A stretch of 63,732 nt of DNA, filler included, from Chrysochromulina tobinii (lineage: Eukaryota), in assembly GCA_001275005.1 (NCBI GenBank). It is 5 parts of 5 records of this genome, joined end to end, with 100 filler letters (N's around TTAATTAATTAA, not from the genome) between each part and the next. Parts side by side here need not be neighbours in the genome. Positions count along the whole stretch, not along the records: positions 29,856 to 50,695 come from JWZX01001142.1; 4 more parts are not named here. One strand, 5' to 3'. The position numbers were made by a program, and so were the translations under genes. Positions 9,815 through 61,504 of the stretch are shown piece after piece (within the stretch, counting starts at the first letter, position 1; the number at the start of each line of letters is the position of its first letter). Under the pieces are notes generated by a model, which saw only the letters and a program-made list of their open reading frames with translations, was not told where the DNA came from and made no database searches.

Positions 9815-11230
9815 CTATTCACTTCGACTTGTTGAGCAGCCCGGCTCTGCAATGGCTAGGAGTGGGAGGGCGGGCGCTCCTTCAGCACGGCGGCGACCGC
9901 CCTCGAGAGCTTCGCCTGCTCCCGGCGGGCCTGGATCGCACAAGATCGCCTCACTTCGCGCCCGCAGTGCCTCGAGATTCGCGAGCTCGCGAGGTGGCGG
10001 CGGCGCCGACGAGCCAAGCAGCTTGGAGACGACGCCGTGGCGTACAGCCCACTCTCGTGCGAGTAGCGAGACGCGGTGAGCGCTTCCCCAGGCGAGGATG
10101 ACGCCAGAGCCGCAGTGGCCGTAATTGTGCAGCGTGTCGAACCCAGTGTCGAACCCAGTGACCAGCCCGGGCTGCTCGTCAGTGTCGGCAGCAGGCTCGA
10201 TCTCTAAGCGGATGCCATCGCGCCGTCCTGGGCGTAACCCTGCCCACCGCCCGATCACCGGCGCATCGCGAAGGCAAGGGAAGCTATGGCGGCACTTTGT
10301 GAGGAGTTCCTCATGCATCTCATCGGTCGGTGTGGGGTCGTCGTTGCCGACTTGAGCAAGCCCAGCGACAGCCACGACGCCGTCTGCTTGAGGGACAACA
10401 TATGTGAGGCCGAAGGGCGAGTCGGAGTCGTCCATGACGTCTGTCACGTGTGGCGCCTGCAGGTATGCGAGCTGACCTTTGACTGGGAACATCGTCTTGT
10501 CTCCGAACACCGTTGACGAGCCGAGCCCAAGGCAATTGATGACCAGCAGCTGGCGGAGGCTGCGAGCTTCCATCGGCCCGTCGCCGACTCCTAGACCGAG
10601 CGCGGCTGCCACGCTGCCAATATCCTGGCGCGATCGGATCGTGTGCCCTAGATGGAGCTGAACGCCAGCATCGATGCAGGCCGACTGCAGCCACTCAAGG
10701 TAACGACGCATGTAGAGAATCGGCGCGCGATGCCAGTGGCCTCCGACAAGATCTCGACTGTACGCGGGCAATACCTCTGGTGTGAAGTCGGCAATCAGCT
10801 CGAGCCGAGACCACGGAGGGTCGGACGTATCGCTCGGTGGATGCCGCCAAGCGTAGCCGGACCGAAGAAGGCGGACACCTGTGGCGCTCTCGGCGCGTGC
10901 CAGCTCATTGAGGAAGACGCGTGAAGAGAGGGCCAGGCGGCATGCCAGCTCCTCCGGCAGCACATGGAAGGGAGGGTACTCCCAAATGGCACCAGCTCCA
11001 ATGGAGACTGTCTCGTCGTACCCATCTCTGGAAACTATGTGTGGCTCGAAGCCGTCAAGTGCAAGCATCAGCGCCGATGTCAGTCCGTTGACCCCTGCGC
11101 CGAGCACGAGCACTTTTAGGCGGTCGCGCTCTTCCGGTGAAGCCATGTGAGCAACCCTCGGGGCATTTGGGGCGCGAGGAATCGCTGGAGGCCTGTCGGG
11201 ACCCGATGCGCCAGAACTGGGGTCCCACAT
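9815..11230 (-). CDS. FAD-dependent D-amino-acid oxidase family protein
   Basis: VLVLGAGVNGLTSA dinucleotide-binding motif, INCLGLGS, PVKGQ, GLRP, HNYGHCGSG. Confidence 0.85.
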   Translation of the reverse strand: MWDPSSGASGPDRPPAIPRAPNAPRVAHMASPEERDRLKVLVLGAGVNGLTSALMLALDGFEPHIVSRDGYDETVSIGAGAIWEYPPFHVLPEELACRLALSSRVFLNELARAESATGVRLLRSGYAWRHPPSDTSDPPWSRLELIADFTPEVLPAYSRDLVGGHWHRAPILYMRRYLEWLQSACIDAGVQLHLGHTIRSRQDIGSVAAALGLGVGDGPMEARSLRQLLVINCLGLGSSTVFGDKTMFPVKGQLAYLQAPHVTDVMDDSDSPFGLTYVVPQADGVVAVAGLAQVGNDDPTPTDEMHEELLTKCRHSFPCLRDAPVIGRWAGLRPGRRDGIRLEIEPAADTDEQPGLVTGFDTGFDTLHNYGHCGSGVILAWGSAHRVSLLAREWAVRHGVVSKLLGSSAPPPPRELANLEALRARSEAILCDPGPPGAGEALEGGRRRAEGAPALPLLAIAEPGCSTSRSE

Positions 11231-15195: not shown

Positions 15196-18114
15196 TCACG
15201 CGGCGAGCTTCTTGGCCGCGGCGACCACCTCCGGCGAGAGGGTGATCGTGGTCGCCTTGTCATTGTACGTGGCGAGCTGGTCGAAGTTGAGGTACCGGTA
15301 CGTGTCCGCGGCCGACGCGTCGATCTTCTTCCAGGCCTCGAGGTACTCGTCGGGCGTGGGCAGCTTGCCCTTGATGGCCGCGAGCGCCGCAAGCTCAGCC
15401 GAGGCGAGGAAGACATCGGCGCCGTTGCCCAGGCGGTTGGGAAAGTTGCGAGTGGACGTGGAGACGACTTTGGCCTTGTCCGCGACGCGCGCCTGGTTGC
15501 CCATGCAGAGCGAGCAACCGGGCATCTCGGTACGCGCGCCCGCCTTGCCATAGATGGAGTAGTAGCCCTCCGCGGTGAGCTGGGCGGCGTCCATCTTGGT
15601 TGGGGGGGACACCCAGAGGCGCGTGGGCAGCTGCCCCTTGAACGAGTCGAGCATCTTGCCCGCGGCGCGGAAATGGCCGATGTTGGTCATACACGAGCCG
15701 ATGAAGACCTCGTCGATCTTGGAGCCAGCAATCGTGGGATCCGAAAGGAGCCGTGCGTCATCGGGATCGTTCGGGCAGCACAGGATGGGCTCCTTGAGCT
15801 GGTCCATGTTGATCTCGATCGTCTCGTAGTACCTGAGGAGGGGCGCACGCAGTGCTCATCAGCGCCATCAGTGGCAATCATCAATGGCCATCAGTACCGC
15901 CTTCCTGAGCTTCGGCCATCAGTGGCAATCATCAGAGGCAATCATCAGTCATCTACGTACTTGGCCGCCTTGTCCGCCTTCATGAGCTTCGGCTTAGCGA
16001 GCCACTCCTCCATGTTGGCGATACGGCGCTCGAGCGTACGCCGGTCGCCGTAGCCCTCGGCGATCATCCACTTGAGCATCACTACGTTCGAGGTCAGGTA
16101 CTCGGAAATCGGCGCCTGGTCGAGCGAGATTGTGCAGCCGGCCGCAGAGCGCTCCGCGGACGCATCCGAGAGCTCGAAGGCCTGCTCGCACTTGAGGTGC
16201 TCCAGGCCCTCGATCTCGAGGATGCGGCCCGAGAAGACGTTGATCTTGCCCTTCTTCTCGACGGTGAGCAGCCCGCGCTGGCGCGCCGCGTACGGGATCG
16301 CGTGCACGAGGTCGCGCAGGGTGATGCCCGGCTGCATCGTGCCAGTGAACTTGACGAGCACGGACTCGGGCATGTCGAGGGGCATTGTGCCGGTGGCGGC
16401 GGCGAAGGCGACGAGGCCCGAACCGGCGGGGAAGGAGATGCCGATCGGGAAGCGCGTGTGCGAGTCGCCGCCCGTGCCCACCGTGTCCGGGAGCAGCATG
16501 CGGTTGAGCCACGAGTGGATGATGCCGTCGCCAGGGCGCAGCGAGACGCCGCCGCGGTTCATGATGAAGTCGGGGAGCGTGTGGTGTGTCTTGACGTCGA
16601 CAGGCTTGGGGTACGCGGCGGTGTGGCAGAAGGACTGCATCACGAGGTCGGCCGAGAAGCCGAGGCAGGCGAGGTCCTTGAGCTCATCGCGCGTCATCGG
16701 GCCGGTCGTATCCTGCGAGCCTACGGTCGTCATGAGCGGCTCGCAGTACTCGCCAGGGGATACTCCAGGGCGGCCGCATGCCTTGCCGACCATCTTCTGA
16801 GCGAGTGTGTAGCCCGCGGGCGTGGGGGGCGCGTCGCCGAGCGAGCGGAAGACTGTCGTCGCCGGCAGATCGAGTGCCGTGCGCGCGCGCGACGTGAGGC
16901 CGCGTCCGATGATAAGTGGGATGCGCCCACCAGCGCGCACCTCGTCAAAGATGACCTGGGTCTTCACCTCGAACTTGGCGAGCACCTGATGAGGGAGGCC
17001 ATCAGTGGTCATCAAAGGCAATCAGATGAGGGCGAGGGTGGTCTCGAGCTTTGGCGAGCACCTCGCCGGTCGTGTGCGACTTCGCGACGCCCTCGTACGG
17101 GTAGATGTCGACGACGTCGTTCATGTGCATCTTGCTCACGTCCATCTCGATCGGCAGCGCGCCTGCGTCCTGCATCGTGTTGAAGAAGATGGGGGCGATC
17201 TTGCTACCGATGCAGATGCCGCCGCCGCGCTTGTTCGGCACGTAGGGCAGGTCGTCACCCATGTACCACAGGACAGAGTTGGTGGCCGACTTGCGCGACG
17301 AGCCGGTGCCGACCACGTCACCCACGTACGCGAGCGGGAAGCCCTTCTTCATCGCCTCGTCGATCTGTGCCTTGGTGCCGTTCTCCTTGTCGGTGACGCC
17401 CTTGATGCCGTCGCGCGGGTGCTTGAGCATAGCGAGAGCGTGCAGCGGGATATCGGGGCGCGACCAGGCGTCAGGCGCCGGCGAAAGGTCGTCGGTGTTG
17501 GTCTCGCCCGTCACCTTGAACACGGTGAACGTTATCTTCTTCGCCACCTCCGGACGCGACGTGAACCACTCCGCGTCCGCCCACGACTTCATGACGCGCT
17601 TGGCAGCGGCATTGCCCTTCTTGGCCTTGTCCTGAACGTCGTGGAAGGAATCGAAGACGAGGATGGTCTTGGACAGCGCGTCGGCCGCGATCTCGGCGAG
17701 GTCCGGCTTGTCGAGCGCGTCGACGAGAGGCTGGATGTTGTAGCCGCCCTGCATGGTGCCGAGCAGGAAGACGGCATCCTTCTGCGAGATGAGCGGCGAC
17801 GTGGCGTCGCCCTTGGCGACGGCGGCGAGGAAGCCCGCCTTGACGTAGGCGGCCTCGTCGACGCCGGGTGGCACGCGCATCTTGAGCAGCTCGAGCAGCT
17901 CCTTGCCCTCATCCGCCGGCGGCTTCTGGAGCAGCTCCACGAGCGCTGCCGTCTTGGCCGCATCGAGCGGCTTGGGCACGATGCCCATCGCGGCGCGCTC
18001 AGCCACCTCTTTCTTGTAGTTGGTCATGAAGGTCGACGCCATGCGCACGGCGCCGAGGCGCACCGCCGGCGCCGAAGCACGGGCCTGCACGAGGCGCGAC
18101 GCCCGAGACAGCAT
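15196..18114 (-). CDS. acnB: Aconitate hydratase B (bacterial-type AcnB) with a mitochondrial-type transit peptide; 3 exons (introns 16986-17061, 15833-15960)
   Basis: [84 protein letters not shown]-terminus [27 protein letters not shown] is R/S/A-rich. Both introns splice in frame. Confidence 0.95.
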
Positions 18115-26274: not shown

Positions 26275-28084
26275 TCACCCCCACCGCGATCTACGCGCTG
26301 CTGCGCCCCCCTCGCTTGCGGCCCCGTGCGCCGCAGGGGTGTCTCGCGCGGGCGGGAAGCGACGTCGCCTATTCGAATTCGTCACCGCGTCGTCCCGGGC
26401 GTCGTTGGCGGCAGCGTGCGCCCCTCTGCTCGATCGACGCGAAACGCTCCACACGACAGCGCCCTGATGACGCATGCGAGGCTCGAGCAGCTCGAGCACG
26501 TCCTTGAAGCCGTTCGCATGCAAGACGCACGGCACTTCGCCGGTTGGCCGGAAGGCAAGCCGACCGTCCGGACGTAACGTCACATCCTTTTGGCAACAGT
26601 GGCAATCAGTGGGCATCAGTGGCAATCAGTGGCACTCAGTCCGGACGTAACGTCACGTCCTTTTGGCAACAGTGGTCATCCGTGGCACTCAGTGGCAATC
26701 AGTGGTAATTCACCTCGGCTCCTAGCGAGTCCAAATGGAGGAACAAGGTGGCAATCAGTGGCAATCAGTGGCAATCAGTGGTAATTCACCTCGGCTCCGA
26801 GCGAGTCCAAATGGAGGAACAAGGTGCCGTTAGTGTCGAGGGCATGCGAGGGCGCGTGCCTACGCGAGGCGAGCGCGGCTTGCAGGCATGCCTATGTGCG
26901 AAATGGCGCCGTGGTGAGCACTTGCATGCGAAGGCGCGGGTGCGGGCCCGCGGGCGGCGAACGCGGCCTGCAGGCATGTCTATGTGCGATGATGGCGCCG
27001 TGGTGAGCACTCGCCTGGTCCTCGACGGCGCACGGCACCGGGCGTGTGAAGGTGCGCGGCGGTCGGCATGACGTGCACGGATCGAGTTGGTAGCCGCCCA
27101 CCTGATGAGGGAGGCAATCAGAGGCGCAATCAGAGGCGCAATCAGAGACGCAATCAGCATGCAAAGCACGGATCGAGTTGGTAGCCGCCCACCTGATGAG
27201 GGATGCAATCAGCATGCAATGCACGGATCAAGCGGGTAGCTGCCCACCTCGCCCTCGAATGCACAACACGGGAAGCGTGGGGACGCTTGACGCAACGAGC
27301 GCGCGAGGGCCTCAAACCCCGCGAGGGTACCTGATGAGGGAGGCAATCACCCGCACTCAGTGGCAATCCCATGCAATCCGAGGGCCTCAATCCCCGCGAG
27401 GGTACCCATCACGAGACCCTAATTAGGATGGCAATCAAGAGCCATCAAGAGTCATCAAGACTCGCGAGCACACCCATCACGAGACCCTAATTGGATGGCA
27501 ATCAAGTCATCAAGGCTCGCGAGCGCACCCATCACAAGCCCCGAATTAGGATAGTACTGGCGTGTGCGGCGTGCCGTGTACTTGACCTTCCACGGCAGCC
27601 GTGGGTCGGGTCCGAAGGGATCGTGCGCGTCGCGGGGCAGCGGATACCATTTGCGCTCGCCGCCAACCACGAGCGGCGCGCCGCCAAAGCGCGTCCGGAA
27701 TCGCTCCTGCAGCTCATCGGCATCGCACTGGAAGATGACATCGGTGTCGGAGAGGAGCGCGAGCGAGGAGGCTGTGCGCGAGTGCTGCTGCTGCTGGTCC
27801 TGGAGGCCGTCGCGCTGCTGCGGGCCCTGGCTGCCGCGCCGCCACGCTTCGAGCATCCAGTCATACTTGTAGCACGCGTTCGCACTCCACGGCGCTCGGT
27901 AGCAGCACTCGAGCGCCTCGCGCTGGGCGGTGACGTTGATCACGACGCGCCGCGGCGGCGCGCCGACGGTGATCTGCTCCGAGGCCCAGCCGGCATGCGC
28001 GCGGTAGAGCGTCTTGGCCGGCGGCTCGTTCCAGGCGTCGGCTCGGTTGGTGTGCAAGAAGACGTCAAGGGCGCTCGGCTTCAT
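26275..28084 (-). CDS. PLOD-type GT-A glycosyltransferase-like protein; 5 exons (introns 27331-27528, 27102-27247, 26892-27014 GC-AG, 26587-26789)
   Basis: SDTDVIF, LVVGGERKWYP, YPNSGLVMG|T, EDQ|A, LDTNGTLF, VLHANG: the motif order of PLOD glycosyltransferase domains appears after splicing. Confidence 0.7.
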
Positions 28085-47182: not shown

Positions 47183-47923
47183 TCAAGAGGATTCCTCCAC
47201 GCCCACGCGTGGATCGGGCTCGTCGTGCGCGGTGCGGACCTTGCGCACTTCCCACACCATCCGCTTTCTGACCTCATATGGCGAACGATCGAAGTCCAGG
47301 GCTTTTTCTTTCCCCTCAGGTGGCACGTTGCTCATCAGCTGCGCCCACTCACTCTCCACCTGCTGGTCAGATGGATTCCACGCGTCATACTGAGATTGCT
47401 CCTCAGGGGTCATCAGAGGAGCTCCTAAGAGGACCTCAGAGCTCACCGAACCCTCGTCCGCTTTCTCATTCGAGGAGGCACCGGCTTGGAAGCCTGGGGG
47501 AATGGTGCTTTGCTCGTAGCCCGTGGCAAGATGCTCGAAGACGATCGTGCCCGCCGCGCTCACGCGCGCCGCCCACCCGTCGGGCAGGCCGTTGACTAAC
47601 ACTGGCATTGGCCGCGAGCGCTTGGAAACCCCAGAATCCGCGAGCGCTTGGACAACTTCGCCGCCAGCAGTTTGCTGCATAAGCAGCTCGACCGCTTCAC
47701 TGGGATTCCAGTTACTAGCCTCAAGATAGAACGTCGCGATTTCTGGCTCCACATGCAGCACATCGACCAAAACAGCAACAAGAGTGTCGTGGTCGTCGTG
47801 CGTTGTTGCGCCCAGCTTGACGACGAGGCTATCTAGAGCAGAGTCGAGGTCTGAAGGGGTATCGTGCGCGCGCCCACGCTTAGCGGTAGGAGCAGAGTCG
47901 GAAGGTGCGCCGCCCATGTCCAT
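47183..47923 (-). CDS. Hypothetical protein with UBA-like and WW-like segments
   Basis: IATFYLEASNWNPSEAV (UBA-like), LPDGWAARVSAAGTIVFEHLATGYEQSTIP (WW-like). Confidence 0.5.
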   Translation of the reverse strand: MDMGGAPSDSAPTAKRGRAHDTPSDLDSALDSLVVKLGATTHDDHDTLVAVLVDVLHVEPEIATFYLEASNWNPSEAVELLMQQTAGGEVVQALADSGVSKRSRPMPVLVNGLPDGWAARVSAAGTIVFEHLATGYEQSTIPPGFQAGASSNEKADEGSVSSEVLLGAPLMTPEEQSQYDAWNPSDQQVESEWAQLMSNVPPEGKEKALDFDRSPYEVRKRMVWEVRKVRTAHDEPDPRVGVEESS

Positions 47924-48385
47924 GGTCGGGGCTCCGGGAGGAGTGCGACGAACGCATTCTTCCGCTCGCGTTCCGCGGCCACGCTCGCTTTCCCAAAGGG
48001 GCCCCTCCCTCGGCTTTCCTCGGCCGCGTCCCAGACAGTAAGTTTCGTCGCGGTTACCTGAACTGACCAGTAACCAGTAACCCCAAGCTTTTTGAGTATA
48101 GCGAAAATTATACATATCCGCCGCCCCGTTCACTAATTGGGGATCCCCGAGCCAGGTTGTGCTTGATTTCGCTGGGGAGCGACTCTACTCTTTAGTACGA
48201 AGTACGCTCATCTCTCTTGCACTACGTAGGTCGCTCACCTCACCTGCTCCGCGCGTGGAAGTCATCATGTCGCTCTCAAATGAAAAGCGCTATCTTTTTC
48301 GACGACTAGATCCATGCGTGTTCGGTGTTGCTGTTGGCGGACCTGACAGTGACTTCTGACTAACCTCAGTGTTTCAAGATCTATT

Positions 48386-50695
48386 CTACCGCCCAACGTC
48401 TAGCTTCCAGGCTGTCCAGCGCCAAGCTTGAAGTGCCGCGTGAAGCCGCAGGCCACGCACGCCCGCGAGGGCACGGTGGATGCAGTCGTCGCGCTGCTCG
48501 GCCGCCAGCTGCTCCGCGACCGTGTGCCACGACTCCGCCTCGCCACGGAAGTGCGCGAGCTCCGCATGCTGTCGCTCGAGGGCAGCACGCGCCGCGCTGA
48601 CCTGCTGGCTGGCCATGGCGCGCAGGGTGGCCTCGCGCGTCTCGGACCACACGTAGAGCTGGGTGAGGCGCCCGCCTATGCGCTCGGCCTCGGCATGCAA
48701 GGCCGTCAGCAGCAGCTGCGGCGCGTGCTGCCGCTCGAAGACTATGCGTGCCTGATGGAGGCAATCAGAGGCAATCAGAGGCAATCAGAGGCAATCAGAG
48801 GCACTCAGAGGCAATCAGGGGCAATCAGTGGCAATCAGGAGGCAATCAGAGGACTATGCGTGCCTGCTCGATGAGCGCCTCAGAGGCAATCAGAGGCCAT
48901 CAGAGGCCATCAGGAGGCCATCAGGAGGCCATCAGGAGGCAATTAACGACACTCGCCTGCTCGATGAGTGGCTTGACTACGCTCGGCGCGGCAAAGGCGG
49001 TTTTCAACGGCAGCTCGTGCTCCGCGTGCGCGTCCGGCGGGGCCGCCGCCTCCAAGGGGTAGCGCGGCCGCAGCGCCACGGCTGTCTCACTGTCCAGCAC
49101 GGCGGCGACGGCGGCGGTGGCGGCCGCGCTCCGTGCGGCCAGCGCGGCGGCCTCAGGCGCAGCGGAAGCTGCGGCGGCGACGGCGGCGGTGGCGGCCGCT
49201 TCCCGTGCGGCCGCCAGCTGCAAGCGTAGCGCTTCGACCTGCGATCTCCACACCGCCTCGCGTCGGCGTAGCTCCTCGGCTTCGTCTGCGAGGCATCCAA
49301 GCTCGCGTGCCTGCCTCGCCGCCGCCTCGGCCTGCCTCGCCGCCGCCTCGGCTTCGACGCTCGTCTGATGGGCATGGCGCAGAGACAGCTCTGCCTCGAG
49401 CTCTGACCGACGCGCCGTCAGCTCCGAACGGAGTGCATCCTGCCTTGCCGACCACTCGGACTCGGCCGCCGCGTGCCGCGCCATAAGGGCGCCCTCTCGC
49501 TCGGCAACAGCGGCCTCGCGAGCAAGCAGCGCCGCTTGCCGCTGCATCACTGCCGTCATCGCCGCCGCGGCGTCGGGGGAGGCGGCCGCAGCGGAGGCGA
49601 CGGCAACGGAGGAGGAGGCATCGGAGGCGGCTCGGTTGGAGGTGCCACTGTTGAGAGCGCTGTTGTGAGCGCTGGCATCGGAGCAGGCACTGGCCGCCGC
49701 GCGTGCCGCAGCGAGCGCCTCCGTCTGCTTCCATAGCTCTCCTTCGAGTGTGTGGAGCGCCTCGAGTTGCTGCTGCTGCTCGAGTAGCCGGCGCGACTGC
49801 ACGGCCAGCAGCTGGCCCTGCGCTTCCCTCTGGGCGGCGTGCGCGTGCGCGCGCTGCGTGGCCTCGAGCAGCAGCTCGCTCTGCGTTGAGAGCTGTTTGC
49901 TCTGCGTGACCAGCTGCTCGCCCTGCTTCTCGAGCCGGTGCGTGAGCTCCGCGATCTGGCTCGATCTCGCCTCGATCTGGCCCACGAGCACCGAGTGCTG
50001 CTCCGCCCACGACGCGAGCTGCGCTTCGCACTCGCGCACGCGCACGCGCAGCGCGGCCGCGGCCTCGCGAGCCTCGGCCGCCTCGGCCCGCTCCTTTTGG
50101 CTCTCCAGGGCGCGCTCGTCGTCCTGCTGCCTCTGCTGCTGCTGCCTCTGCTGCTCCTCCTGCTGCAGCTGCTGCTTGTGTTCGGCCTGCTCCCGCCGCC
50201 AAACCTCAACCGCCCTTTGCGCCTCGTGCCGCTCGCGCCGTAGCCTCTCGCCCGCCTCGGCCGCATCCGCGGCCTGCGCCGCCACCTGCGCGGCCCGCTG
50301 CTCGATCTCGTCCCGCCGCGCCTGAAGCGCGCGCTCGGTTTCGTCCCGCCGCGCCTCGAGAGTGCTCGCCTCCGCGCGCATGGCGAGCAGCTGCGCACGC
50401 ACCGTCTCCTCCTGTGAATGGAGGCTCTGCAGATTTCGTTCGATGGACGCGTGCTGCGACGCGAGCGCCGTCGCGTGCGCCGCGCTTTGCGCCTCGAGCG
50501 CCGCCTCACGCCGCCCGGCCGCCGCCTCACGCGCCTCAAGAGCGGCCTCACGCGCACTCGCTTCGCTCTCTCGGCAGTTGAGGTCGTGCTCTCGCCGCGC
50601 ACACTCGGCCGCCCGCGACGCCGCCGCAGACTCGGCTATACGCGCCGCTGCCATGGCGGCCGCCGCCCCCGCCGCCCCCCCCCCCGCCCCCGCCG
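48386..50695 (-). CDS. Coiled-coil protein, 5'-truncated; GC-AG intron 48752-48956
   Basis: E/Q/A/R-rich ORF; PLIEQ|ARIVFE joins in frame after splicing. Confidence 0.65.
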
Positions 50696-50795: not shown

Positions 50796-53700
50796 AAGTC
50801 GGTGACGGCGCGTGCGTGCGCGGTGCGCGGCCGTCGGTCGAGCAAGGCCGCCTCACCAAAGGCCGGTAGCCCCCCCGGCGTCGCGGCCGCGCCACCGACC
50901 GCGGGCACCGGCCCTAATGTGGCCAGTAACTGCCGTCCACGTGTGAGTTGCACCGCCCCCTGCAGGCACCCAGGCAGGCACCGAGGATGGCACTCAGAGA
51001 GGCCCTCAGTGGTAATTAGGGAGGCACTCAGAGGTAATTATAGGGAGGCACCGAGGAGGGCACTCAGAGAGGCCCTCAGAGGTAGTTATAGGGAGGCACT
51101 CAGAGGTGATACTGAGGTGATTAGGGAGGCACTCAGAGGTAATTAGGGAGGCACTCAGAGGTGATTAGGGATGGAGGCACTCAGAGGTAATTAGGGAGGC
51201 ACTCAAAGAGGCCATCGCACCTGCAGCACCCAGTAGACGCAGTCGGCCGGGTTGCCAAGGTCGAAGAGCACCTCGCCTGCAAGCACCTCGCGTAGCTCGA
51301 GCAAGCAGACGAACTCGCGCACCGAGCGGCTAGGGAGGTCGCGGAACAGGTCGGTGTGAACGAGCTCGGCCTCGACCATCGTCTCAAACAGCTTCCGCCG
51401 TACCTGGTGCACTCAGATGCAATCCGATGCACTCAGATTCAATCAGCACAGGAGATCTTCACAGGCAGCTGCTGACGAACCTTGGCCACAGGGAAGCACT
51501 CAGAGCTGATTAGGGAGGCACTCAGAGCTGACGAACCTTGGCCACACCGTCGGGGCGTAGGTGGAGGTGAAGCTCATCGGCATTGAATGTGAGCACCTCG
51601 ACATCGTCCGAACAGCTCATCGTCGAGGCACGTGGCTTCCCCAGCAGCGCCTGCCGGCAATCAGCATGCACACATGATGAGGGAGGCAATCAGCATGCAC
51701 TCAGTAGGAGGTCCCCAGCTGGCGCGATTGAGAGAGGCACTCAGAAAGCCATCATCAGGCCATCATCAGGCCATCATCAGGCCATCATCAGGCCATCATC
51801 AGGCCATCATCAGGCCATCATCAGGCCATCATCAGGCCATCAGAAAGCCATCAGAAAGCCATCATCATCAGGCCATCAGCGGGCCATGATCGGCCATGCT
51901 TGGAAACGTACTTCAGTCCCGAAGAGGACATATTCACAGCCCGCGCCACGAGGACACACCACCGCGCGACGCTCGCGCCCCTTGCGCTTCTCCTGGAGGA
52001 TGCGTGTGGGCAGAGGGGAGCGCCGTTGTGAGCACTTGCATGCAGCCGTAGCGTCACGTGGAGGGCCTCGCTCACCTGGAGGATGCGTGGGCCAGGGGGC
52101 GGCGGTATCCCAATGTCATCTCCAAGACCAGCTGCTACCTGCCGCTCCTCGAGCTTGCCTGCGGTGAGGACGTAGAATGCCTTCGCCACCGCCCCTTCGC
52201 GATAGAGCGCCGCGTATCTGCATGCAATCAGAGGGCCATCAGAGGGCATCAGAGGGCATCCGAGAGCATCCGAGGGCATCCGAGGGCATCAGAAGTACCG
52301 CGCGTGTCGGCGGCGCCGACCGGCCGATGAGAGCATCGCGAGCTGCCGAGTGTCAAGCTCATGAAAGAAGTCACACGTCTTGAGCGCCTCGGAGGTCTTG
52401 TGCACGTCAAGGGCGACTTTGGCCAAGCGAGCAACGTCGACAACGTCACGACCAGCCATGCTGGCACGGTATACCTCCTACCAACGGCATGCAATCAGAC
52501 GGCATGCAATCAGACGGCATGCAATCAGACGGCATGCAATCAGACGGCCATCGGATGCAATTAAAGTCAATCAGGATGCAATTTAAGGCAATCAGGATGC
52601 AATTCGATGCGATCAGGATGCGATCAGAGGCGATCAGATGCGACCGAGTGCACTCTGAGATGTCATGCTGGCACGGCGAGCAGGTGTAAGCAGGCCATCA
52701 GGCCTCGCATGCCACCCGGCCTGATTGATTGCCTCTGATTGCCTCTGATAGCCTCTGATTGCCTCTGATTGCCTCCGATCGCATGCCACCCAGCCTGATT
52801 GATTGCCTCTGATTGCCTCTGATTGCCTCCGATCGCATGCCACCCGGCCTGATTGATTGCCTCTGATTGCCTCTGATTGCCTCTGATTGCCTCCGCTCGC
52901 ATGCCACCCGTCCGTCCCATCAGATTGCCTCTGATTGCCATCAGGCCATCCCATGCAAACAAAACGCACCTGTCGGTAGAGCCGCACGGCCTCCCACATG
53001 ACGCGCCTCACCTGATGAGGGAGTTCATCAGAGGCTCATCAGTGGCAATCATATGGTTCCACAGCCTCCCACACGGCGCGCCTCACCTTGCGCCGCAGCC
53101 AGTCGCGCCGCCCGGGCGACACCGACGGTGGTTCGCTCGCAATCGCCCGCACTCGCCCGCACTCGATCTCGATCTCGATCTCGACGGTTTCGTCAGATGG
53201 CGTCTCGGCCCGCGGAAGCGCTGTGTTGGGCACCCCCCAGTGCATCCCCACGGCATCGAAGCCAGCCTCAGCGCCGTAGTTGGGCTCCTGCAGCGGAGCG
53301 CCGTGTTGGGCAGCATCGTGCGGGTACGCGCCGTGTTGGGCATCGCCGTAGTTGGGCTCCTGCTCGGCAGCGCCACTGCAGCCGCCTCCGCCACAGTCGT
53401 AACCGCCACCTGCTCCCCCGGCGCTCACGACGGCGCTCACGATACCCGCCGCGCTCTCCACGGCGCCGCTGCCCGGTACGGCGCCGCCCGATACGGCGCC
53501 CATGCTCCACGCGAAGGCGGGATGCTCTGCCGCCGCCGCAAGCGCCGTGGCGAGCGCCGCCTCCTGGGCCGCCGCCTCGTAGGCAGCGCCGTGCTGGGCA
53601 CGCGGAGAGCGCGCGGGAGGGCTCGTAATTGCCGACGTCATCAACTCAGTGAGGGAGAGCTCCGAGTCGAGCGCCGTGTCGGGCGCATCCTCGGGCGGCG

Positions 53701-58341: not shown

Positions 58342-61300
58342 TCAGTGCGGAAGGATGTCTTCAACGTCAAGGGAGAGCGACTCGAGATCATCGGAGAGAT
58401 TGTCGTGCGAGGGAGAGAGCAGGGGCTCGCGTGCGGCCACCGGCCGGACAGCCGGCCGTGTGAAGGCCGCGGGGGGCGCCCGACACGACGCGCGCCCGCC
58501 GCCGCCGCCGCTGCCACCGGCGATGCCGCCACCGGCGGCACCTCGAGCACGGGCGATGCCTATGTTGTCGTTACCGTCCTCCTCCTCCAGATCCGGCAGA
58601 TCGCCGATCTCGGTGTCCTCGCGATCTGCCGCGGAGGAGATTGGTTTCGTCATGATGGGTTTCGTCATGATGGGTTTCGTCATGGTGACCATCGGGGTGG
58701 CCGTTGGCGCCGCCGCGGATGAGGACGCAGCCCCCCTCGCGCCGCCGCCGAGGCCGGCAAGGCGGTTGCCTCCCAGTCCTGTGGGAAGTCCTGTGGGAAG
58801 TCCTGTGGAATTGCCGTAGAGGGAGCTAGTGGGATTCCCCTCCTCGGAGGAAAACGAGTCCGCCGCGTCGCCATACCCACCGCCGCCGCCGCCGCCGTAG
58901 GACGAGAGGACAGCACCGAAGCCAGCCCTCTGCATCGCACTCGACGCCGAGGGGTCGCCGGGCGCAGGGGTCGGAGCGGTTGGAGCGGGGACCTCGACGG
59001 GTGCCAGCCCGCCGCCAAGCCCTCCGCCGCCGCCACGGCGCCCCAGGCGCGCCCCGCCACCCAGCCCGCCGCCCCCAAGCCCGCCCCCCCCAACCCCGCC
59101 GCCGAAGCTGCCAGTGCCGCCACCGACACTGCCTCGGTTGACGAAACTCGCGCCGGAGGACGCAGCTGGCGCTGCGGCGGGCGGATGCGCCTCCAGCGGC
59201 TGCTGCATGCGCGCCGTGGCGGGCGCCGCCGGCTTGGGCGTGCCTTCGTTGGAAGTTTCCTCGAAGGACTCCGAGTACTCATCCGCGTCGTCCTGAGCGG
59301 AGTCGACCTCCTGGATCGGCGCCGTCCTGAGCAGCGTCGTCTTGGGCGGCGTGCGAACCGCCGAGGCGGATGACGTGGCGGATGACGTGGCGGATGACGC
59401 GGCGGCGGCGGCGCTGGTGGCGGCGGCGGGTGCGGCGCGCGCCGTGGTGAGCGCCGGAGGAGGCGCCGCGATGGCGCCCGCCGTGGTGAGGCGCCGTGGT
59501 GAGCGCCCCGGCGACGGGCGGTAGGGCGAGTCGGCCGACAGGTCGAGATCGAGCTCCGACGCCACGTCCGAGCCGCCGTAGCTCGCCTCGAGCAGATCAT
59601 CACCACCGGCGTGCCGCCCATCACGGCGCCCCGCAGACGGCGACGTGCGCGGATGCGGCTGCGGTGGCTGTGCCGCGCCCATCACGGCGCCCATACGGTG
59701 GCGGCCGTGGCCAGCGGCGCCGCGGATGGCGGTGGCCTCGCGTGAGGCGTTGCCAGGAGGGGATCCGAGACCCATGCCCGCACGCGCGCCCATTCGGCCG
59801 ACCGGCTGGCCTGCAGCAGCAGCGGCGGCGCCAGCAGCGGCGCCAGCGCCAGCACCACCGAGCGGGCCCGCTGCCAGCGCCGCGGCGGACGGCGCAGGGA
59901 GACGCGCCGTGGCGGGCGCCGCCGGCTTGGGCGTGCCTTCGTTAGAAGTTTCCTCGAAGGACTCCGAGTACTCATCCGCGTCGTCCTGAGCGAGCAGCAC
60001 CTCGGGGAGCGGCTGGCCGGGTTGTGGCAGCACGCTCTCGTTCAGAAACTGGGCGGCCGCGCGCTGGTACTCGGTGGCCTTCGCGCCGGTCGCGGGCGGC
60101 ACAAGCGCCGAGTTGAGCAGCGTACACAGCGCGGAGCGCGCGAGGCCGCCCACCTGATGAGGGAGGCCATCAGAGCTCATCAGTCGCATTCAGTCGCAAT
60201 CAGCGCGGAGCGCGCGAGGCCGCCCACCTTGCTCAGCCCGTGCAGGTACCTGAGAGAGAGAGAGAGGGCGAGGCGCCGTGGTGAGCACGTGCATGCATGG
60301 CAGGCCATCCGAGGCAATCCACGTACTGCACGAGGCGCCGTGGTGAGCGCGTGCATGCATGGCAGGACATCCGAGGCAATCCACGTATGCATGAGGCGCC
60401 GTGGTGAGCGCGTGCATGCATGGCAGGCCATCAGAGGCAATCCACGTACTGCATGAGGCTTCCGAAGAGCCGCCACTCTCCCGGCCCGACCGCCGCACGC
60501 AGCGCGTCCAGCGTGAGCGCCGCCTGGCAATAATACTCGTCGCCAACCTGATGAGGGAGGCCATCAGAGCTCATCAGTCGCAATCAGTCGCAATCAGTCG
60601 CAATCAGTCGCAATCATACTCGTCGCCAACCTTGACGTAGCTGTCGGTGCGCAGGTCGAAGCATTTGAACTTGTCGAGCTCTTCCCGCCCAAACTGCAGC
60701 CGCGTTCGGAGCGCCGTCGCGAGCGCGCCGTTGCTCACCTCCTTGCCCGCCGCCGGTCTCGTCAAACCCGCCTTCACCCACTTGGCGCCGAGCGGCACGT
60801 CCAGAAAGGCGGGCGGCAGCAGAGCGACAGGCCAGCTCATCACGAGAGCGCGCAGGGCATGCGCGCACCTGTGGGGAGAGGGGAGGGGGGCGCGCCGTGG
60901 TGAGCACTTGCATGCAAGGCAGCTCATCACGAGAGCGCGCAGGGCATGCGCGCACTGTGTGGGCGTGAGGGCTCGCAAGCCTCCCGCGCCGTCTCGGCGC
61001 CATAGCTCGAGCGCGCGCAAATGCTCCTGGCGCGCGCTCGGGGGCAGCGCCTGCGAGGAAGGGGCGTCATGGTGAGCGCGTGCATGCATGGCAGGCCATC
61101 AGTGGCACTCCACGTACTGCACGAGGCGTCGTGGTGAGCGCGTGCATGCAAGGCAGCTCATCAGTGGCACTTCACGAACCTGAGAGGCGGTGCGCCACGA
61201 CTGGACCACCTGTGGGGAAAGGGGAGGGGCGCGCCGTGATGAGCACGGGAGTGGACGCGCCGTGATGAGCACTTGCATGCAGGGAGGGAGGGCGATGCGC

Positions 61301-61504
61301 CACGACTGGACCACCTGCTCCGCCTCCCGCCGTGGTGAGCACTTGCATGCAAGGCAGCTCATCCGTGGCAATCAACGTACCTGCTCCGCCTCGCGACGTG
61401 CGACGCTCTCGGGGCGGCTGAGCAGCGTCGCCGCCTGCGCTTGCAGGGCCGCGGCCAGCGGTAGAAGCTCATCGCCATCGGCATTGGGTGGGGTTGGGTG
61501 GGTC
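58342..61504 (-). CDS. Multi-exon hypothetical protein with a low-complexity C-terminus; introns include 60154-60227, 60548-60630, 60869-60955
   Basis: The long terminal exon ORF starts after an acceptor at 60154; upstream short exons are separated by duplication-type introns; internal ~85-nt duplication (AQDDADEYSESFEETSNEGTPKPAAPATAR) at ~59210-59300 and ~59905-59990. Confidence 0.5.

What the first reader, a model, noticed from the sequence alone, without database searches (positions are those of the whole stretch)
48752..48956. Exact copy of the spliced exon-exon junction inside its own intron
Seen: the intron contains CTCATCGAGCAG|GCACGCATAGTC (48852-48875, sense orientation), 24 nt identical to the spliced junction, with repeat filler on both sides. 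Inference: this is either a preserved piece of the intronless ancestral allele left by serial duplication, or sequence templated from spliced mRNA/cDNA during repair. Either way it points to intron gain at this site.
Basis: partly seen in the sequence, partly recalled or inferred. Interest (0 to 1): 0.75.

Follow-up and report, generated by a model that had tools for sequence, protein, structure and literature searches.

The report
Intron built by two stacked duplications
In a freshwater alga, a 205-base intron holds an exact copy of its own spliced junction, most likely because two short DNA duplications with repeat filler hit the same spot one after the other, and natural variants appear to carry only the first, which would let intron growth be studied step by step.

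Summary
The minus-strand GC-AG intron 48956-48752 contains its own 12+12-nt spliced junction exactly. A single-copy DNA contig carries the copy, and one RNA contig shows the junction. The organism is Chrysochromulina tobinii or a very close relative.

The intron is two intron-shaped halves (93 and 112 nt), each a short flank duplication plus 10-nt repeat filler. This is common here: 277 of 466 filler regions carry a flank copy (shuffled 15), and 11 carry their own junction.

Key result: of 15 listed database ORFs for exon 2, 7 (45 contigs) run from filler plus the exon-1 copy straight into exon 2, so they lack half 2; 4 end as the window does. The copy is therefore likely the old acceptor junction, left inside when a second duplication moved the acceptor 112 nt. 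This allele evidence is protein-level only.

An mRNA template is not needed and found no support. It works like Daphnia staggered-then-staggered neointrons. The scan noted similar flank copies before, in this genome and others.

The parts
48957..50693 (-). Upstream exon (open to the scaffold gap) of a coiled-coil-like protein of no Pfam family; ends ...KPLIEQ
   Evidence: distant homologues P0150 and P0173 hold its LE.ELW word and the exon-2 domain in one ORF
48752..48956 (-). Whole intron, 205 nt, GC..AG, phase 0
   Evidence: frame; one RNA contig
48864..48956 (-). Half 1, 93 nt, GC..AG: donor, filler F1, then a copy of the exon-1 end; the inferred older intron
   Evidence: a 19-nt word after the donor dinucleotide is shared with the exon-end-type intron of L101
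48876..48954 (-). Filler F1: degenerate 10-11-nt repeats shared with many other introns
48852..48875 (-). 24-nt junction copy: 12 nt of exon-1 end (48875-48864) plus 12 nt of exon-2 start (48863-48852); the inferred old acceptor junction
48752..48863 (-). Half 2, 112 nt, GC..AG: copy of the exon-2 start, filler F2 and the present acceptor; the inferred later addition, absent from 7 of 11 informative database ORFs
48386..48751 (-). Last coding exon, 121 aa (P0001), with a domain kept in distant homologues, one labelled Prymnesium sp.
61210..61380 (-). Second intron in the window with the same anatomy: 171 nt, halves of 66 and 105 nt, exact 12+19-nt junction copy at 61296-61326
   Evidence: splice sites inferred from the reading frame only

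Best explanation
The intron consists of two intron-shaped halves, each a short copy of flanking exon plus repeat filler, and it most likely arose by two successive DNA-level duplications at the same AG|GC junction. Step 1 (inferred): the exon-1 end plus the next two bases was duplicated around filler F1, giving a 93-nt intron that ends in a copy of the exon-1 end and uses its CAG as acceptor. Step 2 (inferred; order from the alleles): the first bases of exon 2 were duplicated around filler F2, which brings its own acceptor, so the working 3' splice site moved 112 nt downstream. The old acceptor junction stayed inside the intron and reads as the spliced junction because its upstream side was already an exon copy. 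The mutational process is likely break repair or replication slippage with microhomology-guided template switching onto filler from other introns; no transposase or reverse transcriptase is needed. The copy is likely a scar with no function; the 205 nt must be removed whole, in one step or two.
For: (1) Alleles: 15 of 23 cluster members were listed; 4 (29 contigs) begin with the window's intron end (..LIASDCLHQ|ARIV), 7 (45 contigs) begin with filler-coded residues plus P/A-LIEQ|ARIV, 4 (9 contigs) are uninformative. The leading words PLSAS, TLIAS, LIASL are filler words (54 of 77, 18 of 20, 328 of 330 occurrences lie in filler, which holds 3.3% of all 5-mers). Half 2 is missing both in a divergent exon-2 haplotype (6 proteins, 4-5 changes) and in P0145 (1 change from the window), so one gain of half 2 is the shortest history. 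(2) Both single-step types are common: of 125 flank-filler-flank cases 46 are exon-start type, 18 exon-end type, 61 unclassified; duplications run 10-42 nt. (3) 277 of 466 filler regions hold a flank copy against 15.4 in shuffles; adjacent upstream+downstream copies were flagged 19 times against 0 in 20 shuffles. Both copy kinds co-occur in 48 regions (about 28 expected if independent), so combining two frequent events yields enough cases. (4) In 11 of 11 junction-copy introns at least one half is itself GT/GC..AG. (5) A 79-nt exon-start-type intron with a 30-nt duplication is present in L061 and absent in L086, 98.5% alike. (6) Filler-to-copy joints away from splice sites share 3 or more bases in 28 of 51 cases against 15-24% in controls (p 2e-7).
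Against: The shorter allele is seen only as predicted protein; its DNA and whether each contig is DNA or RNA were not seen, and 8 of 23 members were not listed. P0145, which sets the direction, is one contig. No intronless allele of this site was found, so step 1 as a gain rests on class evidence and distant homologues. The focal intron itself shows no microhomology signal (two joints scored 2 nt, two not scorable). The copy-to-filler signal is weak (17 of 39, p 0.017, and the top five rows are themselves filler). Splice sites outside the focal and aconitase introns are inferred. The sample was drawn on an acceptor word, which favours exon-start-type introns. Point (4) is a weak test: 229 of 289 exon starts behind the common acceptor begin GT or GC anyway.
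Confidence: 0.78

Rival explanations
1. The two-half intron is ancestral and the shorter alleles lost half 2 by deletion between the two 15-nt repeats; the two duplications could then have come in the other order.
For: Direct repeats allow precise deletion (established knowledge). Half 2 alone would be a plausible intron: L127 has an exon-start-type intron with the same GCACGC start, and in 5 of 11 junction-copy introns an exon end without AG and a 5-8-nt donor match to the next exon point to exon-start-first.
Against: Needs two losses, or one loss plus recombination, since half 2 is missing in both the divergent haplotype and P0145. The exon-end copy is longer in the divergent alleles (PLIEQ against ALIEQ), so it is older than the window lineage. 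A scan for alleles without the present donor found 0 (exact match, no positive control).
Confidence: 0.12
2. The filler units are mobile Introner-like elements and each half is an insertion with a long target-site duplication; the two-step history is the same but the agent is a transposon.
For: Shared words between unrelated introns (19-nt donor word with L101; the acceptor word occurs 268 times). Introners are reported in a Chrysochromulina sp. MAG (PMC9860276, section 7 read). A second filler family in 61210-61380 is more element-like.
Against: Duplication length varies from 10 to 42 nt against 4 bp for the reported Chrysochromulina Introners; the longest exact matches of F1 and F2 to other introns (34 and 46 nt) lie in the simple repeat; joints show microhomology. 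This rival changes the agent, not the history, so it overlaps the best explanation.
Confidence: 0.2
3. The copy was templated from spliced mRNA or cDNA during repair inside an existing intron.
For: The copy is exact and centred on the junction.
Against: Alleles exist in which the same junction is the intron's own end. None of 8 candidate sites is a credible copy of a neighbouring junction, against 11 own-junction copies. Other copies lack 4 or 15 nt, have 2 extra, or carry the intron's acceptor bases (L074, L075, L103, L058). Power of the neighbour test is limited: copies are short and only 59 of 337 neighbouring filler regions lie within 120 nt.
Confidence: 0.04
4. Assembly artefact: a repeat-induced misjoin.
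For: The contig with the copy ends in shared filler on both sides.
Against: An independent assembly of reads gives the copy at single-copy depth with 0 differences; 9 further cases come from other assemblies.
Confidence: 0.02

Closest known systems
Daphnia pulex neointrons from staggered double-strand-break repair, 'staggered-then-staggered' class (PMC4202315; passages read, supplements not read)
   Same: Direct repeat of a flanking exon end at the opposite end of a new intron; secondary insertions with further direct repeats enlarge it; alleles differ within a species.
   Different: There the exon-intron repeats are 4-12 bp and the inserts AT-rich; here repeats are 10-42 nt, the filler is a genome-wide repeat family, and the second event sits on the old acceptor so that the spliced junction is displayed inside.
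Intron gain by tandem genomic duplication of an AGGT-containing exon segment (as reviewed in PMC3443670; passages read)
   Same: The duplicated AG|GY supplies a splice site and the coding sequence is unchanged.
   Different: The two copies are separated by non-exonic filler that carries the other splice site; the intron is not a pure exon copy.
Introners of Chrysochromulina sp. and Symbiodinium (PMC9860276; passages and section 7 read, SI not read)
   Same: One splice site carried, the other co-opted from a duplicated target; both orientations occur here.
   Different: Reported duplications are 4 bp; here length is variable and long, and no end-to-end conserved element was found for F1 or F2.
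Fungal stwintrons and complex intervening sequences (PMC7138796; abstract read); recursive splicing at zero-length exons (recalled)
   Same: One intervening sequence made of two intron-like units that could be removed in two steps.
   Different: Stwintrons nest one intron inside a splice signal of another; here the units are head to tail, and two-step removal was not tested.

Membership tests
Spliceosomal GC-AG intron | Removed from mRNA at the proposed GC and AG | tested here: inconclusive
   Frame restored; one RNA contig gives the junction with an 18-nt overhang, strain allele unknown
Staggered-break neointron (Daphnia type) | Direct repeat of flanking exon at the far end of the insert | tested here: met
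   Half 1 ends with an exon-1 copy, half 2 starts with an exon-2 copy
Staggered-break neointron (Daphnia type) | Alleles lacking the insert in the same species | tested here: inconclusive
   Half 2 absent in 7 of 11 informative ORFs, protein level only; no fully intronless allele; a class example is polymorphic in DNA
Staggered-break neointron (Daphnia type) | Origin in a double-strand break | not testable with these tools
   Only footprints can be read; microhomology at filler joints
Pure tandem genomic duplication (AGGT model) | Intron consists only of duplicated exon sequence | tested here: not met
   24 of 205 nt are the junction copy; nearly all the rest is filler
Introner (DNA-transposon derived) | Short fixed-length target-site duplication | tested here: not met
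   10-42 nt, variable; my search could not see duplications under 10 nt
Introner (DNA-transposon derived) | Family of introns similar end to end | tested here: inconclusive
   Shared words and repeat tracts only, in 0.68 Mb, about 1% of a 59-Mb genome (size from PMC4580454)
Introner (DNA-transposon derived) | Terminal inverted repeats | tested here: not met
   None of the 25 longest inverted pairs in 47500-50500 lies in the intron; also absent from the reported Chrysochromulina family
Recursive splicing / twin intron | Intermediate RNA cut at the internal AG|GC | not testable with these tools
   Only low-depth RNA contigs; none lay on the internal copy among the pieces shown
mRNA/cDNA-templated insertion | Copies of junctions other than the host intron's own | tested here: not met
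   0 credible of 8 candidate sites, limited power

The most novel reading that the evidence does not exclude
Chrysochromulina runs an ongoing, transposon-free intron factory: repair synthesis duplicates 10-40 bases and fills the gap with branch-point-like repeats copied from other introns, so introns seed introns. Repeat hits at one junction stack whole intron units head to tail, and the internal CAG|GC is then used as a recursive (zero-length-exon) splice site in an intron of only 205 nt. I put the factory part alone at about 0.4; the probability given is for both parts together.
Probability: 0.12. Interest if true: 0.8.

Novelty: new variant of a known kind. Interest (0 to 1): 0.55.

Why it matters
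How new spliceosomal introns arise is a long-standing question, and intermediates are rarely caught. Here a cultured alga with a published genome, reported as probably haploid (PMC4580454), appears to carry before-and-after alleles of one intron, plus hundreds of introns with the same footprints. That makes order of events, rate and mechanism testable by resequencing. It also warns that an exact spliced-junction sequence in genomic DNA is no proof of reverse transcription, and that such copies can mimic spliced reads with short overhangs.

Tried and rejected
No whole genome is held for the window. Filler scans of viral contigs gave 0 and 0 hits. The genome-contig scan gave 32 mostly bacterial matches; exon 2 was not found in 5 of 5 genomes behind them. 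Word-indexed protein searches with exon 2 and with the end of exon 1 found nothing; no Pfam family for either; 9 exon-1 ORFs were not in the collection, so the 5' end of the shorter allele was not seen. The metagenome scan for alleles lacking the present donor found 0; by design it could not see the half-1-only allele and it had no positive control. Joint and loose-end tables were swamped by filler from other introns and were not used. The first junction scan was dominated by filler-filler matches and its output was cut; it was replaced by masked scans. Rows dropped before counts: 13 redundant loci and 6 allele duplicates of 132; of the 21 rows, 10 were repeats of the same intron with other boundaries, a second assembly (L053 = L047) or one spurious case (window, near 27400), leaving 11. 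The first microhomology test was inflated by splice-site words and was redone without them. Repair from an intronless homologue was set aside because the species is reported as probably haploid and the alleles explain the copy without it. Ten literature searches listed no paper whose title or abstract start describes this filler or own-junction copies in haptophytes; the library lacks most subscription papers, and the supplements of PMC4202315 and PMC9860276, which may bear on novelty, were not read.

Full report
Observation. The gene lies on the minus strand. The stretch 48956..48752 (205 nt) starts GC and ends AG; removing it joins ...KPLIEQ to ARIVFERQ... in one open frame, while the unspliced frames stop. 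The longest junction-spanning match inside it is 24 nt, 12 from each exon, at 48852-48875, with chance about 3e-13. In DNA run X1 a 119-nt contig spans the copy with no difference at single-copy depth. One RNA contig of run X14 continues from exon 2 into exon 1 rather than into the internal copy, on 6 telling letters; this is thin support and the strain's allele is unknown. Distant homologues P0150 and P0173 hold an exon-1 word and the exon-2 domain in one uninterrupted ORF, which supports the gene model.

Organism. The aconitase gene in the window is 99-100% identical to KOO34665.1 of Chrysochromulina tobinii. The genome paper gives 59 Mb, about one intron per gene, and suggests haploidy (PMC4580454, passages read); its main text has one occurrence of 'intron'.

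Anatomy. The intron splits at the centre of the copy into two halves that are each intron-shaped: 93 nt (GC donor, filler F1, exon-1 copy ending CAG) and 112 nt (exon-2 copy starting GC, filler F2, acceptor). Removing only one half leaves stops. The filler is a degenerate 10-11-nt repeat found in most introns I saw in the window; its CTGAT core resembles the branch-point consensus (recalled). A 19-nt word right after the donor dinucleotide recurs at the start of an unrelated intron in L101, which has the form donor, filler, exon-end copy. L127 holds an intron of the other form with the same GCACGC start as half 2. A second intron in the window (61380..61210) has the same two-half anatomy with a 12+19-nt copy.

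How common. After dropping 19 redundant loci, 683,772 bases including the window remained. Of 466 filler regions, 277 hold a flank copy of 10 nt or more, against 15.4 with shuffled flanks; adjacent upstream and downstream copies were flagged in 19 against 0 in 20 shuffles. A stricter exact search gave 11 distinct introns with their own junction, 2 of them in the window; the L103 copy has 2 extra bases if the likelier donor is used. Of 125 simple flank-filler-flank cases, 46 are exon-start type, 18 exon-end type and 61 could not be classed; duplications run 10-42 nt. The sample favours exon-start types, and its splice sites are inferred, except the aconitase intron, whose removal matches the annotated protein and which is absent from eukaryote-like homologous ORFs P0003, P0006 and P0007. 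One 79-nt intron with a 30-nt duplication is present in L061 and absent in L086 at 98.5% identity, the only such case in 7 pair alignments.

The intermediate allele. The profile-free HMMER search with exon 2 gave 13 hits. The best, P0145, belongs to a cluster of 23, of which 15 were listed. These ORFs start at a start codon upstream of or inside exon 2, so most show what precedes the exon. Four (29 contigs) read ..LIASDCLHQ|ARIV, the window's F2 end. Seven (45 contigs) read ..ASLTE-P/A-LIEQ|ARIV: filler-coded residues, then the exon-1 end, then all of exon 2. Four start inside the exon. Six of the seven share a divergent exon-2 haplotype never seen with the F2 end; the seventh, P0145, is one change from the window and shares its EALIEQ. 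So half 2 is missing in both the outgroup and the sister allele, and one gain on the window's lineage is the shortest history. A partly spliced RNA could mimic P0145 alone, but is unlikely for 44 contigs of a haplotype never seen with half 2. This is inferred from proteins; the DNA was not seen.

Mechanism. Shown: the two-half anatomy, the frequency of each half type, a polymorphic example, and ORFs lacking half 2. Inferred: step 1 duplicated the exon-1 end around F1 and made a 93-nt intron; step 2 duplicated the exon-2 start around F2 and moved the acceptor, leaving the old acceptor junction inside. Variable, long duplications and microhomology at filler-to-copy joints (28 of 51 with 3 or more bases against 15-24%) favour repair or slippage with template switching over a transposase; the opposite joint gives only a weak signal and the focal intron none. 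Other cases point to the reverse order, so both paths probably occur. An mRNA template is not needed: no credible neighbour-junction copy among 8 candidates and several inexact copies.

Comparison. It works like the staggered-then-staggered neointrons of Daphnia (PMC4202315, passages) and uses the AG|GY logic of the tandem-duplication model (PMC3443670, passages). It fails the short fixed duplication of the Introners reported in a Chrysochromulina MAG (PMC9860276, section 7), though a mobile filler is not excluded. Two-step splicing as in stwintrons (PMC7138796, abstract) is untested. Earlier notes of this scan describe a repeat-flanked intron family in this genome and similar copies in other protists; they are unchecked leads, not support.

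Verdict. A real feature, explained by a known class of process, recurring at about 2% of filler regions. Its value lies in the apparent natural intermediate and the genome-wide system. New variant of a known kind; interest 0.55.

Noticed in passing
window 60870-60956 (minus): Exon-start-type intron with a 36-nt perfect duplication whose last 10 bases are themselves a filler word; its filler and 3' end closely resemble the intron 400 nt upstream, which suggests local copying between introns.
   Followed up: no
window 15199-18114 (minus): Aconitate hydratase B gene, 99-100% to C. tobinii KOO34665.1, with two filler introns; the first is absent from eukaryote-like homologous ORFs.
   Followed up: partly
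window 52420-52960: Two long filler tracts of opposite orientation lie next to each other in what may be one intervening region.
   Followed up: no
L061 against L086: A 79-nt filler intron with a 30-nt duplication is present in one and absent in the other; the exon there already contains the common acceptor word.
   Followed up: partly
L088 about 9817-10360; L097; L085; window 27040-27280 and 26540-26840: Acceptor-plus-exon-start or exon-end-plus-donor units repeated 2-6 times in tandem, giving runs of possible alternative splice sites.
   Followed up: no
window 48387: An RNA contig of run X16 leaves the 3' end of the gene with 37 other letters, and P0159/P0167 end ...AGRYEYMYE, so another allele has a different stop and tail.
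   Followed up: no
L027, L029: Contigs filed in bacterial MAGs (Gemmatimonas sp., Actinomycetota) carry the haptophyte-type filler, L027 with a full filler intron; likely eukaryotic contamination.
   Followed up: no
L001, L007, L009, L011, L015, L025: A dispersed repeat of about 70 nt in two bacterial MAGs contains the same 19-nt word as the filler, in an AT-richer context; probably unrelated.
   Followed up: no
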